Assembly: GCA_963847125.1 (NCBI GenBank)
Contig: CAWJYM010000004.1
Coordinates: 620,001 to 684,000 of the forward strand
Length of the DNA: 64,000 nt
Source of the DNA: an uncultured Acidobacteriota bacterium
GTDB taxonomy: Bacteria > Acidobacteriota > Vicinamibacteria > Vicinamibacterales > 2-12-FULL-66-21
Direction: 5' to 3'
Position numbers: made by a program. Positions 6,001 to 15,000 of this stretch are shown in pieces. Positions within the stretch are counted from its first letter, which is position 1. Every line of letters starts with the position of its first letter.

Positions 6001-9000
6001 CCGGCAACAGCTTTCAGGTTCTCGTCAACGGGGATCGCGTCTTCCCGTCGATGCTCGAAGCGATCCGCCGCGCCAGGCGCCAGATCAGCTTCGAGACCTA
6101 CATCTATTCTCCGGGACCTGTCGCCGACCAGTTCACGGCGGCGATTGAAGAAGCCGTCCGGCGCGGCGTGCGGTGCCACATGGTGCTCGACGCGATCGGC
6201 TCGAAGGACCTCGGCGATCATCTCGATCGTCTGCGTCGGGCCGGTTGCACGATCGGCACGTTCAACCTTCCGCACTGGTACAACATCGAGGAGCTGAACT
6301 ATCGAACCCATCGCAAGATCCTCGTCGTAGACGGCATCATCGGGTTCATCGGGGGTGTCGGCGTCGCGGACTACTGGGCGGGGGACGCGCAGGATCAGGA
6401 CCACTGGCGCGACACCCAGGTGCGCATGGAAGGGCCGTCCGTCAAGTACCTCGAGGCCGGTTTCTTCGAGAACTTCTCCGAGACCGTGCGGCCGGTCACG
6501 CCCCTCTTCGAGCCCCCTCCGACCGAATTCGTACCGAACGTCGACGAACGGACGGTGGTGATCTGGAGCTCACCCGTCGGCGGGAGCAGCGGGATGAAGC
6601 TCCTCTACCTGCTTTCGATCGCCGCGGCGCGCAAGACGCTCGACATCTGCAGCCCGTACTTTCTGACCGACGAATCGACCGCGTGGGCCATCGAGCGGGC
6701 GGTGGACCGCGGCGTCCGGGTGCGGATCCTGGTCGAGGGGGACATCACCGACGCGAAGCCGGTCAAGTACGCCAGCCGGGCGGCGTACGAACGCTTCATG
6801 TCGAGAGGGATCGAGATCTACGAGTATCGTCCCACGATGATGCACGCCAAGGTGATGGTAGTGGACGGCATCTGGAGCGTGTTCGGGTCGGCGAACTTCG
6901 ACAACCGATCGCTCGAGCTGAACGACGAGCTGAACGCCGCCGTCGCGGATGCCCCGCTGGCGGCCCGCTTCACGAGCGACTTCGAGTCGGACATCCGCCG
7001 AGCCACCCGGTTGAATCTGGACGAGTGGCGTCGGCGGTCGGTGCTCGAGAAAGCGCGCGAGAAGTTCTGGTCGATGTTCGGCGAAATCTTCTAGGGAGTG
7101 GTGCCGCACCGAGCCGGCGATCCGATGCAGGGGATCGCCCGGAGGTACTCGTAAATGGCCCTCTTCTCCAGGATCGTCATCTTGGAAAACACCGGCCAGG
7201 GCATGACCTGAAGGAGATCGTTGTCCGGCGACGGCTCCGGGACGTTTCCTGGACTGCCGGTTTCGAAGTCCGTGCCGCGCCTGAACACTTCCAGGAACTG
7301 CTGGAGCGTCAGGCCTCCGGGCCGTCCCTGGCTGTTCGGGGTGAGGTTGCGCGGCACGAAAGGTCCGAACAGGGTGCCTCCGCCCGAGAGAAACGTGGCC
7401 GTGCTGATCTTTTCTTCCTGCCCGAGATGCGGGTCGCCCCCGTCTTCGTATTGCGGCGTGCTGTGGCAGCCCGCGCAGTCAGCCTGTGCGTTCACGATGT
7501 AGCTGCCGAGACCGACCAGGAACGGATTCTTCCCGTGGAGGTTCAGCGGCACCGGGTTGATCCGGTAGCCAATCCGGATCTTGTTGAGATCGCTCAGGTC
7601 GAAGCCGTCATCGCCGCCGCCGGCGCTGTGGATTCTGCCAGCGGCCGTGAGCACAAAGACGAGCGAAAACGCGACGAAGAGAATTGATCGTTTCATGGGG
7701 CCTCCTTCCGGTTGCACCAGCGTGGACCGCCCAATATAGGCACTCGCTCCCACCGCGTCAAAAGCATTTTCGAGGCGGGTGCGTCAGTGAAGTAGAATGC
7801 CAACCCCATCCATGACAGGGGCCTGCGGAACCGCGGCGAACCCGGCGCCCGCATCGGCGCCCGCGAGGCCCTCCGTGTTGGCGGCGTTCATCGTTCTGCT
7901 GCTCGTCCGGCTGTCCGTGCCTGTTTCCGCCCAGACCGTTGAGTTCGCGCCGCTCGCCGGCTACCGCTTCGGCGGGGACCTCTTCGAGCTGGCAACGAAC
8001 CGGCCCGTCGACGTCGACGGCGCGCCCGTCGTCGGAGGCGCCGTCAACGTCGACATGGGGGCCGGACTCTCGTTCGAGGCGGTGTTCTCGCATCAACAGG
8101 CGTACGTCGACACGCCTGGCGGCCCATTCGGTCCGCCGGCGCGGTGGAGTGTCGTCGTGGATCACTGGCTCGCCGGCGGCCGTCAGGAGTTCGGGACAGG
8201 GCGAGCCAGACCTTTTCTGTCCGGCCTTCTGGGACTCACGCGGTACGGAGCTGACGGAGACGACGAGTTCCGGTTCACGGTGGCTGCCGGCGGAGGCGTC
8301 AAGCTGCCCGTTCACCGGCGGTTTGCGGTGCGGCTCGACAGCCGCCTCTTCACGACGTTCGTGGATGCGGAGGCACGGGCGGTGGCGTGCGCATCCGGTG
8401 CCTGCTTCGTCGGCCTCGACGTAAACGTCGCCTGGCAGGTCGAGTTTACCGCCGACGTCGTGATCGTCCTCAATCCGCCGCCGCGCCGGTAATCGATGTT
8501 CGGCGAGGTCTTCTGACGATCGACCCGCCGGTCAGGCAAACGCCTGATATGTCGTCGTCCCGATCGGCCCCGAACACCACCTGCAGTGGCTGCAGCAGAA
8601 ACGGTTGCCCGAATTCCTGCAACACCGGCACACCCGATAGCAGGTGCTGGGCGCAGCCTGGAGATCGAACGCCTGATCGAACTGCGGAACCACCCCACCG
8701 CCCGATCCAATCGACGCTCCTGTCGACTGGTAGTGTCCAGTCGCGTGATAAAGCGATGCCTCCGCGTGAAATCCCGGCAGCGTTGTGGTCATTCGACTCA
8801 CAGGATGATCTCCCCCGGGGTTGGGTTGTCGCACTTCCAGAGGCAGTAAGACAGGCGAAAGTCGCAGTAGGAAGAGCCGCCTCCCACCCTGCACCAGCCG
8901 TAGTCCCAAAAGCATCCGCCCTTGCACCACCACCCTCCGAGCGTGTCGAAGATAGATCTCGCAGCCGCCGCCGACGCCTGAGGCGTGACTCCGGTCCGCG

Positions 9001-12000: not shown

Positions 12001-15000
12001 GTGTTGTCGGCCCGGAGACCAGTGCGCCTTGGACGGGTGTTCTCCTCCCAACCAGATCTGCAATGGTTATGGCGGCTGCCTGGGGAAGTGCCTCCCCAGC
12101 GGGTGCTGCCCGCCGCATCGTATCGTTTGTAACAACGAATGCTGTGCGTACGGTGTGAAGGCCTGTTCCCCGGAAGGCACGTGCGTGGGCTGTGGAGCCG
12201 AAGGCCAGCCCCCCTGCCATGGGGAGACGTGCAAGGGCGACCTGCACTTGAACATCGATATTGGGTCCAATCAGTTGGTTTGCACGGCTCACTGCGGACA
12301 CGTTCATCAGCATGCCTGCCGCACGACATATCCCGTTCCAGGAGGTGTTCGCTCGCGTTATCGCTGCTTCCACCACACGACGCTTTCGGCGAATGGGCCG
12401 GCGGGTCCCTCCAGTTGCGTCTGTCTGCACAACAGCGTCAATGATGTGGAAAACGACGTTTCGGACGATAGTGGATTTTGCATCTCGACGGTGCACGCTC
12501 CGGGAGATGTACCGGACCCTCCTGATGACGACGGCGATTGATTGCACCGCGCGAGAAGTTCTGGTCGGTGTTCGGCGAGGTATTCTAACGGCGGATGGTC
12601 CGCGTCCGCTTCGCACCCTCGCCGACCGGGTACCTCCACGTCGGGGGGGCGCGTACCGCGCTCTTCAACTGGCTCTACGCCCGCCGCCACGGCGGCGCGT
12701 TCATCCTCCGCATCGAAGACACCGACGCCGAGCGCTCGTCGTGGGACATGGTCTCCGGCATCGTGGAGGGGCTGCGATGGCTGGGGCTCGACTGGGACGA
12801 AGGGCCGGACGTCGGCGGTTCGCACGCGCCCTATTTCCAGTCACAACGGCTCGACAAATACCGCGCGGCGGCCGAGGGCCTGGTCGCCTCCGGCCACGCA
12901 TATATAGATGATGGAGCGATCCGGTTCGACGTCCCCGAAGGACGGACGTCGTTCACCGATCTCGTGCACGGGCCGATCGACTTCGACAACGAGCACATCG
13001 AGAAGTTCGTCATCCTCCGCTCGGATGGCCATCCGACCTACCACCTGTCAGTTGTCGTCGACGACATCGACATGGAGATCTCACACGTCGTCCGGGGCGA
13101 CGATCACATCTCGAACACGCCGAAGCAGGTGCTGCTCTACCACGCGTTCGGACGATTCGTCCCTGCGTTTGCCCACGTGCCGCTCATCCTCGGTCCCGAC
13201 AAGAAGCGGCTGAGCAAGCGGCATGGCGCGACCGCGGTCGGCGAGTACGAGCGCGCCGGCTATCTCTCGGAGGCGATGGTCAACTTCCTCGCGCTGCTCG
13301 GATGGTCGCCCGGCGGCGATCGTGAAGTCATGACGCGCGACGAGCTGATCGCCGCGTTCGCCATCGAAGGGATCAGCGGAGGCAATGCCGTTTTCAACGC
13401 CGAGAAGCTGGACTGGTTCAACACCCAGCACATCGCGCGGATGCCGGCCGACGAGATCGTCCGGCGCGTCGAGCCGGACCTGAGAGCGGCGGGGTTGTGG
13501 AACGACGACTTCGCGTCCGTTCGACGGCCATGGCTGCTTGCCGTCATCGATCTCGTGAAGCCGCGGCTCAGGAAGCTCGCCGACGCCGTCGATCAGGCGC
13601 GGCCGTTTCTGGCGGATGTCGTCGAGCCCGATCCGGCCGCCGCGGCAAAATACCTCGGCGCGTCGGAGCTCGCGGGCCCTCTCGCGGCGCTGCGCGAGCG
13701 GCTGGCCCGCGTGGACCCGTTCGAGCCGGTCCCGATCGAAACCGCGCTGCGTGAGGTGGCCGCTGCGGAGGGCATCAAAGCCGCGTCGCTCATTCACGCG
13801 TCCCGCGTGGCGGTGACGGGCCAATCGGTGAGCCCGGGAGTCTTCGAAGTGCTCGCGCTTGCGGGCCGCGACCGCGTGCTCCAGCGGCTCGCGGCCGCCG
13901 AGCGTCGCGTACGTGACGCTCACGGATCCTCCTGAAACGGCTGAGCCATAGACCATTTCCGTGGCACATGCGTTGCACCCTGCAGAGGCAGGAGGCGCGC
14001 CGTGGCGAAAGAAGATCGTGGCTTCGCGTCGATGGATCGATCGAAGCAGAAAGAGATAGCGAGCAAGGGCGGCAAGGCCGCGCACCAGAAGGGGACCGCG
14101 CACGAGTGGACGAGCGAGGAAGCCCGCGAAGCTGGACGGAAAGGCGGCATCGCCAGCCACCAGCGTCGTCGTGAGCGTCTGACGCAGCCCGACGACCCGA
14201 GCGGGGCCGAGATCGGTGTGATGGACGAAGAACCGCGGGAAACCAACTCGTGAACGTGAGCTACCACTTCTAAGACCCGCGCTCACGCCGTCCGTCCCTC
14301 GTGTGACAGAAGTCCAGCCGCACTCACCCAGGTACTCCGCGTTGCGGGCGACACGATCTTCGGTCGCCGCAACGCATTCTTGCGTGGGGTGTCGTTAAAG
14401 GCTCAGCTCGCCGGGCATTGGGGGTCCAGATGAGATAATGGCCCCACTCACCGATGTTCGACGATCACGCCCGAGTTCGCCGTCTGCTCGCGCGCCGCGA
14501 TCCCCGCTTGGGCGCCGTCATCAACCGCTGTAAGGGCACGCCGGACTACCCGAAGCGCATCGAGCATTTCACGGCCCTCGTGCGCGTCATCGCCGGCCAG
14601 CAGCTGTCGACCAAGGCGGCTCAGACCATTTTCAACCGCGTCGCCGCCTGCTTCCCGGACAACGTCCCGACACAGCCTGGATTTGCCTCAGTCACCGATG
14701 AGCAGCTCCGCGCCGCGGGCCTGAGCCGCCAGAAGACGGCGTACTTGCGGGACCTCTGCGTGAAAGTCGGTGACGGAACGCTGCGTCTCTCCGACATCGA
14801 GCTCTTGCCGGACGAAGAGGTCATTCAGGCCATCACGCAGGTCAAGGGTCTCGGGCGCTGGTCCGCGGAGATGTTTCTCATGTTTCGGCTGAACCGGCCG
14901 GACGTTCTCCCTGTAGGCGACCTCGGGATCCTCAAGGCGATACAGAAATGCTACGGGCTGCGGAAACCACCGACGCCAGAGCGCATGCTCGAGATCGGCG

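What a model noticed while it worked through the whole genome (the two positions that open the first line are those of the whole stretch)
8798..12541. Minimal cyanobactin-protease module for hypervariable, disulfide-rich peptides with a PGFTAE leader
g00749 (PatA-like S8 protease), g00748 (66-aa CxxC protein) and g00747 (stand-alone PatG DUF protein) lie with three ORFs (g00745, g00746, g00750) that share a leader MxxPGF(T/S)AExSL followed by unrelated Cys-rich cores. The same three-gene module with arrays of such precursors, and no conserved tailoring enzyme or transporter, occurs across many bacterial phyla and in Methanosarcinales: an undescribed ribosomal peptide class.
Evidence so far: 195 genome stretches encode a g00747 relative; of the best 80 loci (Cyanobacteria, Acidobacteriota, Proteobacteria, Chloroflexota, Planctomycetota, Spirochaetia, Methanoperedens, Methanosarcina) 74 hold the protease, 63 the small protein and 68 hold 144 leader peptides, 142 on the module's strand (170, 175, 180). 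Median length 83 aa, median 6 Cys behind residue 40, even Cys count in 107 of 140, almost no Cys in the leader; 103 of 144 have a V/I/L-x-P(Q/A/S) motif at the leader end. In 56 full-length loci no other annotated gene recurs in more than 3 (180). PatG_D lies near Peptidase_S8 in 482 genomes (181). No Pfam or NCBIfam family for the precursors (169, 203).
(Added by a program. Inside this text positions count along the whole contig: contig position 620,001 is position 1 of the stretch shown here. "Call 12" and the like, gene names such as g00115 and contig names such as C1 are that model's own, and its searches are not shown. The text may have been shortened before it was handed on; [...] marks where a part breaks off. 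The agent that wrote the report below was given it as the finding of a first reader that could run no searches.)

Follow-up and report, generated by a model that had tools for sequence, protein, structure and literature searches.

The report
Protease cassette for disulfide-rich miniproteins
A 4-kb gene cassette, missing from a close relative, holds a cyanobactin-type protease, two partner genes and four cysteine-rich peptide genes that share one leader; it belongs to a large, apparently undescribed family of bacteria and archaea that likely cuts off the leader to release miniproteins predicted to be disulfide-bonded, whose use is untested.

Summary
The 4-kb cassette lies between copies of the cls 3' end and is absent from a 95%-identical relative, so seven genes make the whole unit. 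In 80 related loci 74 hold the protease, 63 the small protein, 74 hold 198 precursors; no tailoring enzyme or transporter recurs within 10 kb. A V/I/L-x-P-(Q/A/S) motif sits 32-34 residues behind PGF; behind it 134 of 138 cores have an even cysteine count (114 of 126 in a second set), with no preference for multiples of four: disulfides rather than metal sites. The protease is PatA-type without the PatG cap, so products are likely linear. New here: the DUF protein carries the same cut motif plus CxxC, the small protein carries the leader's LPGF plus CxxC, and arrays keep relics of the DUF gene's 3' end. The leader profile hits 4,033 protein clusters. Not a cyanobactin cluster; no paper found; this scan noted the module before on other DNA.

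The parts
7054..7093 (+). 3' end of the cardiolipin synthase (cls) gene; reference copy of the repeat that bounds the cassette
8493..8516 (+). left boundary: short, degenerate copy of the cls 3' end, directly behind the outer-membrane-protein gene
   Evidence: family D1; 96% over 24 nt to the cls end of G001
8798..9079 (-). precursor g00745, 93 aa; VTPQ motif 31 residues behind PGF, core with 6 Cys
9109..9348 (-). precursor g00746, 79 aa; ILPA motif 31 residues behind PGF, core with 6 Cys
9405..10334 (-). g00747, stand-alone cyanobactin-DUF protein, 309 aa; disordered N-terminal arm with IAPQ (the precursors' motif) and CxxC (C41, C44), then the PatG-DUF fold
10371..10571 (-). g00748, 66-aa protein of no known family; invariant P22, F24 (LPGF, as in the leader) and C48, C51 at the start of a predicted helix
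10588..11535 (-). g00749, PatA-type subtilisin (S8) with intact Asp-His-Ser and oxyanion Asn, no PatG cap, no evident signal peptide or prodomain
11630..12541 (+). precursor g00750, 303 aa, 34 Cys, divergent from the operon; canonical PGF leader, deviant leader end (GVTSSQ); relatives in L035 and L040
12548..12587 (+). right boundary: 40-nt copy of the cls 3' end (90%), directly in front of gltX

Best explanation
A self-contained, likely horizontally moved cassette in which a PatA-type protease would cut a conserved leader from arrays of cysteine-rich precursors, releasing linear miniproteins predicted to be fully disulfide-bonded and likely acting outside the cell. Steps: (1) SHOWN: the genes, their linkage, the leader (MxxPGF(T/S)AExSL), the V/I/L-x-P-(Q/A/S) motif at a fixed 32-34 residues, the even cysteine count, conservation of cores, the cassette's boundaries. 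(2) INFERRED: the S8 enzyme, made without signal peptide, cuts after that motif in the cytoplasm, as PatA cuts after its recognition sequence; no ring closure. (3) INFERRED: PGF is a docking motif read by the DUF or by a second site on the protease, which would explain the fixed spacing. (4) INFERRED: the DUF protein is itself cut at its own copy of the motif, which bares a CxxC arm, and the small protein, which carries LPGF and CxxC, docks where the leader docks and tunes or assists the step; it is dispensable (11 loci have protease and DUF without it). (5) INFERRED: all core cysteines pair as disulfides, in air after release or helped by the module's CxxC pairs. (6) INFERRED: cores are target-binding miniproteins (antagonism or signalling), not cationic membrane lysins; the export route is not encoded in the cassette. 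(7) Partly shown: arrays grow by recombination at the DUF gene's 3' end, which leaves relic copies in front of added precursors.
For: Cassette absent from G004 (about 94-96% identical on both sides): window 8492 joins 12575; DUF in 0 of 4 same-genus and 3 of 60 same-family genomes, 2 of 301 in the phylum sample including this genome. Protease: best PDB matches PatA and PagA (E 4e-30 to 1e-29; profile E 7e-46 to 2e-42 against 2e-21 for PatG/PagG); D29, H65, N166, S231 invariant in 64 of 64. Motif in 138 of 198 precursors, shuffled mean 18, max 33; distance 32-34 in 101 of 138; 14 Cys in 4,954 leader residues against 1,062 in 7,759 core residues; even count 134 of 138 (resampled mean 69, max 85; one core per locus 68 of 69; the 60 without the motif 49 even, 8 odd, 3 zero; multiples of four 69, others 65). 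Second set from the protein library: motif in 134 of 150, even 114 of 126. DUF arm: motif in 58 of 72 (shuffled mean 16, max 29), Cys pair in 63 of 72; kept in fused forms (23 and 27 of 36). Small protein and leader share invariant P and F (profile match E 0.002 over 12 columns). pN below pS in 20 of 20 core pairs. No YcaO in this complete genome. Relic DUF 3' ends: 31 in 24 of 80 loci, 20 followed by a precursor start within 300 nt; control segments 1-5 copies, 0-1 followed. Stig1-like cores in 3 of 76.
Against: No product, cleavage or activity is shown. No transporter recurs in 80 loci; leaders are not Sec, Tat or double-glycine type (2 of 138 hydrophobic, 0 Tat-like, 0 GG/GA/GS), so release is unexplained. 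The module occurs in strict anaerobes (Methanoperedens, Methanosarcina, Brocadia), where air oxidation is hard to picture. The PatG DUF did not bind its precursor PatE by NMR (PMC4259220), although it is only 22% identical to this DUF. The motif differs from PatA's G(L/V)E(A/P)S (PMC10885120); 60 of 198 precursors, g00750 among them, lack it in strict form. The small-protein/leader likeness is only four to twelve residues (probability 14%); a profile comparison of DUF and leader found nothing. The pN/pS pairs were picked by similarity, which favours low pN. Relic DUF ends are closest to their own locus in 9 of 27 cases, so local duplication explains some.
Confidence: 0.62

Rival explanations
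1. The cores are intracellular metal- or Fe-S-binding peptides (metallothionein-like), released by the protease and loaded through the CxxC pairs of the DUF arm and the small protein.
For: No export route; presence in strict anaerobes; CxxC in the small protein, the DUF arm and the protease; PatG DUF crystallised with zinc (PMC4259220).
Against: Even counts in 134 of 138, no preference for multiples of four (69 against 65), His only 1.8% of core residues; commonest spacer is CxxxC, not CxxC; about 150 different cores among 202 is more variety than metal storage needs.
Confidence: 0.13
2. The PGF leader is mainly a targeting signal for an unlinked export or packaging route; the DUF is the adaptor and the protease strips the signal from any cargo.
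For: Cargo ranges from 2-Cys hairpins to 478-aa Stig1-like repeats; one leader is joined to a Fic domain (L069) and one DUF to a Fic domain (P0153); no transporter is linked.
Against: The 150 best library hits are nearly all short Cys-rich peptides, not enzymes; the Fic fusions are single cases that may be rearrangement scars; no common secretion system was tested across hosts that include archaea, Actinomycetota and Gram-negatives.
Confidence: 0.12
3. Cores are modified by enzymes encoded elsewhere (azoles, thioethers), and the cassette supplies only precursor and protease.
For: Flanks of 10 kb cannot exclude distant genes; one LanC-like gene lies 2.4 Mb away in this genome.
Against: No YcaO in this 100%-complete genome; such chemistry needs no even Cys count; the cassette moves between phyla and domains as a unit.
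Confidence: 0.06
4. The protease also closes the cores head to tail, giving cyclotide-like products.
For: Kinship with cyanobactin proteases.
Against: No insertion against PatA between catalytic Asp and His (spacing 33-40 in 60 of 61 parsed); PatG/PagG match only from profile position 61; AYD/SYD/FAGD followers in 2 of 138 cores and no common C-terminus.
Confidence: 0.04
5. Decayed remnant of a cyanobactin cluster with no present function.
For: Some related loci are frameshifted and 10 of 211 precursor hits are truncated.
Against: Intact triad, 55-76% identity across phyla, thousands of precursor clusters, purifying selection.
Confidence: 0.03

Closest known systems
Cyanobactin pathways (PatA/PagA leader protease with C-terminal DUF; PatG macrocyclase; PatE; PatB, PatC)
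   Same: PatA-type S8 protease, the same DUF fold (4UVQ; Z 20.1, rmsd 3.2, 245 aligned), conserved leader with variable core, several precursor genes per cluster, small accessory gene. A review calls the one cyanobactin disulfide spontaneous for want of an enzyme (PMC4663559, passages).
   Different: One protease, no G-type enzyme, no follower, no heterocyclase or prenyltransferase; DUF usually a separate gene and 22% identical to PatG DUF; another leader; cores of median 44 aa with 2-76 Cys rather than 3-20 residues; hosts across many phyla and archaea.
Disulfide bacteriocins and glycocins (pediocin, sublancin; recalled, no call)
   Same: Leader removal gives a linear, disulfide-bonded peptide.
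   Different: Those use double-glycine leaders, peptidase-ABC transporters and dedicated thiol-disulfide oxidoreductases (recalled); none is linked here, and cores are neutral on median.
Eukaryotic Cys-rich peptide libraries (conotoxins, plant Cys-rich peptides, Stig1 family)
   Same: Conserved front end, many different even-Cys cores per producer; 3 of 76 scanned precursors pass the Pfam Stig1 cut-off.
   Different: Those enter the secretory pathway by signal peptide (recalled); here there is none and a dedicated prokaryotic protease cassette stands beside the genes.

Membership tests
Cyanobactin cluster | A-type (PatA) S8 protease | tested here: met
   Best PDB matches 4h6v, 3zxx, 4h6w; triad invariant. 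TIGR03895 matches at 101 bits, below its cut-off of 421 because the DUF is a separate gene.
Cyanobactin cluster | DUF domain fused to the proteases | tested here: inconclusive
   Fold present but separate here and in 80 of 80 loci; fused in 51 of 57 longer relatives.
Cyanobactin cluster | G-type protease with capping helix | tested here: not met
   One S8 per module, no insertion against PatA. Cap described in bioRxiv 2020.03.17.996157 (passages); that it lies between catalytic Asp and His is recalled.
Cyanobactin cluster | PatE-type precursor with short cores between RSII and RSIII (AYDG, SYD, FAGD) | tested here: not met
   Follower-like words in 2 of 138 cores; median core 44 aa; no NCBIfam precursor family at cut-off.
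Cyanobactin cluster | PatB and PatC homologues | tested here: inconclusive
   None of 58 small proteins matches an NCBIfam family below E 0.06; that NCBIfam holds PatB and PatC models is recalled; remote kinship is not excluded.
Azole-containing RiPPs (TOMM) | YcaO cyclodehydratase | tested here: not met
   0 matches to PF02624 in the 100%-complete genome, control positive in 5 of 14.
Double-glycine leader bacteriocins | GG/GA/GS leader end and linked peptidase-ABC transporter | tested here: not met
   0 of 138 leaders end so; no transporter recurs at a fixed place.
RiPP in general | Precursor of conserved leader and variable core beside a processing enzyme | tested here: met
RiPP in general | Processed, modified product detected | not testable with these tools
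   Needs mass spectrometry or reconstitution.

The most novel reading that the evidence does not exclude
A prokaryotic counterpart of venom-type peptide libraries with its own intracellular oxidative-folding machine: the PGF leader docks on the cyanobactin DUF, the protease bares the DUF's CxxC arm and cuts the leader, and a CxxC relay of DUF arm and LPGF-bearing small protein forms the disulfides without periplasm or air, in anaerobic archaea too. That would give the cyanobactin DUF its function and define a new peptide class with thousands of scaffolds.
Probability: 0.22. Interest if true: 0.92.

Novelty: new variant of a known kind. Interest (0 to 1): 0.75.

Why it matters
Disulfide-rich miniproteins are known mainly from venoms and plants; the leader profile here hits 4,033 clusters at 50% identity, so this is a large prokaryotic source with a sequence tag that makes it easy to mine. 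The role of the cyanobactin DUF has been open since its structure (PMC4259220); a three-gene system with the DUF as a free protein, in cultured hosts (Nitrosospira multiformis, Sinorhizobium mexicanum, Streptomyces), makes that question directly testable. A leader-directed protease that accepts so many unrelated cores would also be a useful tool.

Tried and rejected
Complex prediction (protease + DUF + leader) was not available; nothing was folded, so no structural evidence on binding exists. Viral contigs: no stretch matched the DUF patterns. Small protein: no fold match in PDB (Foldseek none at E<=0.001; best Z 2.2), Atlas gave only unnamed clusters; precursor 4 likewise. DUF: beyond 4UVQ only OB-fold-like matches at Z<=7.4, not taken as function. 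Conserved neighbours: best recurrences were generic families at varying places (histidine kinases 9 of 80, ABC ATPases 7, Ser/Thr kinases 5, kumamolisin-like 5, radical SAM 4); a conserved receptor kinase, noted in an earlier scan finding, is not general in these 80 loci. Fusion of protease and DUF in loci lacking the small protein: 0 of 80. Orphan precursors elsewhere in this genome: none. Integrase or transposase in the cassette: none among its ORFs. One sigma-70-like site in front of the protease is at chance level (1 found, 0.6 expected). g00746 has a weak match to TIGR04117 (18.9 bits, cut-off 50), rejected. Origin of relic DUF ends (foreign capture or local duplication) unresolved. Literature: searches found no description of the module; leader and small-protein motifs gave 0 papers.
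Full report
What is in the window. On the minus strand lie an S8 protease (10588-11535), a 66-aa protein (10371-10571), a 309-aa protein with PatG_D and PatG_C (9405-10334) and three short ORFs (9109-9348, 8798-9079, 8532-8792); a 303-aa ORF with 34 Cys runs the other way (11630-12541). Two leader patterns run over the whole 6.47-Mb genome gave these four and four unrelated hits with 0-1 Cys. Three of the four have V/I-x-P-(Q/A) 31-32 residues behind PGF, with cores of 8, 6 and 6 Cys; g00750 ends its leader in GVTSSQ.

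Boundaries. The last 40 nt of cls recur at 12548-12587 (90%) and, shorter, at 8493-8516. In G004, a same-genus genome about 94-96% identical on both sides, window position 8492 is followed after ten bases by 12575. The stretch missing there holds the seven genes and nothing else: no integrase, tailoring enzyme or transporter. G002 has another, 0.6-kb insert at the same place with its own copy of the cls end, so the cls-gltX junction is an insertion hot spot. The DUF was found in 0 of 4 same-genus genomes, 3 of 60 same-family genomes (these tallies include the unpublished G003, 81% complete, as a genome without a match) and 2 of 301 in the phylum sample, this genome included. In a tree of 73 DUF rows (8 of the 80 loci left out because the start motif was not parsed) the window's protein groups with two betaproteobacterial copies (100/99), and Acidobacteriota and Pseudomonadota need 8 and 10 changes; this fits transfer but does not give a direction. 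Loss from G004 rather than gain here is not excluded.

The family. The genome scan gave 195 stretches; the best 80 were kept. 74 hold the protease, 63 the small protein; none has protease and DUF in one frame. Of 213 leader hits I dropped 2 small proteins, 10 shorter than 45 aa and 3 open at contig ends, leaving 198 in 74 loci, 191 on the module strand; one or two of those kept are probably not precursors. 185 lie downstream of the DUF, 180 of them within 4 kb. All-against-all clustering of 5,446 ORFs within up to 10 kb showed no other gene at a fixed place; the most frequent were generic kinases and ABC ATPases. The module also sits on plasmids of Sinorhizobium, Mesorhizobium and Streptomyces; in the two I opened it has precursors that the listed annotation lacks. 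The DUF has at least 7,918 near-length relatives at 90% clustering, and a profile of 107 leaders hits 4,033 clusters at 50% identity.

Precursor anatomy. V/I/L-x-P-(Q/A/S) occurs in 138 of 198 (shuffled mean 18), 32-34 residues behind the P of PGF in 101 of them. Leaders hold 14 Cys in 4,954 residues, cores 1,062 in 7,759. The count is even in 134 of 138 cores, against a resampled mean of 69; 68 of 69 with one core per locus; 49 even, 8 odd, 3 zero in the 60 without the strict motif; 69 are multiples of four and 65 are not. In the 150 best library hits the motif is present in 134 and 114 of 126 cores are even (this set was ranked by a profile that includes the motif, so only the parity is a fresh test). 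The 202 cores (198 plus the window's four) form 151 clusters, 122 singletons; only 2 repeats occur within a locus, while one family spans Acidobacteriota, Brocadia, Alphaproteobacteria and Methanoperedens. pN is below pS in 20 of 20 core pairs (pooled 0.19 against 0.54; pairs chosen by similarity). Net charge is 0 on median. Leaders are not hydrophobic, Tat-like or double-glycine. Of 76 precursors scanned (the longest and family representatives), 3 pass the Stig1 cut-off and 1 is a leader-Fic fusion.

The enzymes. The protease matches PatA and PagA best and aligns to PatA without insertion between catalytic Asp and His; the spacing is 36 in 48 of 61 and 33-40 in 60 of 61, 11 further rows were broken or unparsed. 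The PatG cap that binds the follower (bioRxiv 2020.03.17.996157, passages) is therefore likely absent, and follower words occur in 2 of 138 cores. The DUF model (pLDDT 85, residues 1-50 disordered) matches only 4UVQ well (22% identity, Z 20.1). Its disordered arm holds the precursors' motif in 58 of 72 loci (shuffled mean 16) and a Cys pair in 63 of 72; both persist in the linkers of fused protease-DUF forms (23 and 27 of 36 parsed, of 57), some of which may be read-through gene calls. The small protein has invariant P22, F24, C48 and C51 in 58 of 58, is predicted as strand, helix, CxxC, helix, strand (pLDDT 81), and its LPGF aligns with the leader's (weak). Enzyme-borne copies of a substrate's recognition sequence have a precedent in G-type proteases.

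How arrays grow. A profile of the DUF gene's last 120 nt finds 31 extra copies in 24 of 80 loci, 20 of them within 300 nt in front of a precursor; four control segments give 1-5 extra copies, 0-1 followed by a precursor. Of 27 downstream relics, 9 are closest to their own locus's DUF and 18 to another's, several clearly so (best-of-78 inflates the latter). Recombination at the DUF end, with foreign or local copies, is the likely source. The window's own array has no such relic by inspection of its short gaps.

Mechanism. Most likely the protease cuts after the motif and frees a linear core whose cysteines all pair (0.62). PGF, fixed 32-34 residues upstream, would be read outside the active site; with no heterocyclase present (no YcaO in the genome) the candidates are the DUF and the protease surface. 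Against the DUF stands the NMR result that PatG DUF does not bind PatE (PMC4259220, parts 2 and 3 of 4 read). How disulfides form and how cores leave the cell is not explained by the cassette, least of all in anaerobes; hence the metal-binding (0.13) and export-signal (0.12) rivals. The complex prediction that might have placed the leader was not available.

What is known. It works like the PatA step of cyanobactin pathways but fails membership: no G protease, no RSIII, no short cores (definitions from PMC4663559, PMC10885120 and PMC4603692, passages only). Eight searches of the open library (listings and abstract starts only, except the five papers named) found no description; subscription journals and all supplements were not seen, and genome-mining tables in supplements could list these loci. 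This scan noted the same module before in other genomes; those notes are unchecked and are not counted as support.

Verdict. Real, ordinary in its parts, undescribed as a system as far as I could search; interest 0.75.

Noticed in passing
window 7054-7093, 8493-8516, 12548-12587; L101 (G002) 12313-12469; L106 (G004) 7204-7369: The cls-gltX junction is an insertion hot spot: each insert is followed by a new copy of the cls 3' end, without an integrase nearby; G004 has a further 169-nt copy on another contig.
   Followed up: partly
window 7091-7696 (-) and 7797-8492 (+): Between the first two cls-end copies lie a CxxCH cytochrome-c-like ORF without Pfam match and an outer-membrane beta-barrel gene; G004 lacks about 400 nt of the former, and G002 has the latter in front of cls.
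   Followed up: partly
L069 6025-6666 (+); protein P0153: A PGF leader joined to a Fic domain, and separately a Fic domain fused to the DUF; either scars or a hint that the leader can carry enzymes.
   Followed up: partly
proteins P0121, P0123, P0148, P0165: DUF fused behind a gamma-PGA-hydrolase-like domain (PF05908, three cases) or a glycosyltransferase (one case).
   Followed up: no
L017 10969-12354 and 13089-14525; L037 7921-8577: Very long precursors (up to 478 aa, 76 Cys) made of Stig1-like repeats, a family described from plant stigma proteins.
   Followed up: partly
24 of 80 loci, e.g. L012, L015, L046: Relic copies of the DUF gene's 3' end in front of downstream precursors, a footprint of array growth.
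   Followed up: yes
alignment A3 (protease): The protease family has its own conserved cysteines: a pair flanking the loop before the catalytic His (C55, C63) and a CPxC (C85, C88).
   Followed up: no
L109 (Vibrio aquimaris plasmid); Photobacterium sp. GJ3 record: Distant DUF copies (27-31% identity), two per record, with no PGF precursor by my pattern in L109; probably another PatA/PatG-type system.
   Followed up: no
G000:C4:3005304-3006404 (-): A single LanC-like gene far from the cassette.
   Followed up: no
proteins P0178, P0179, P0180, P0270: Precursors with a doubled leader, consistent with recombination between leaders.
   Followed up: no
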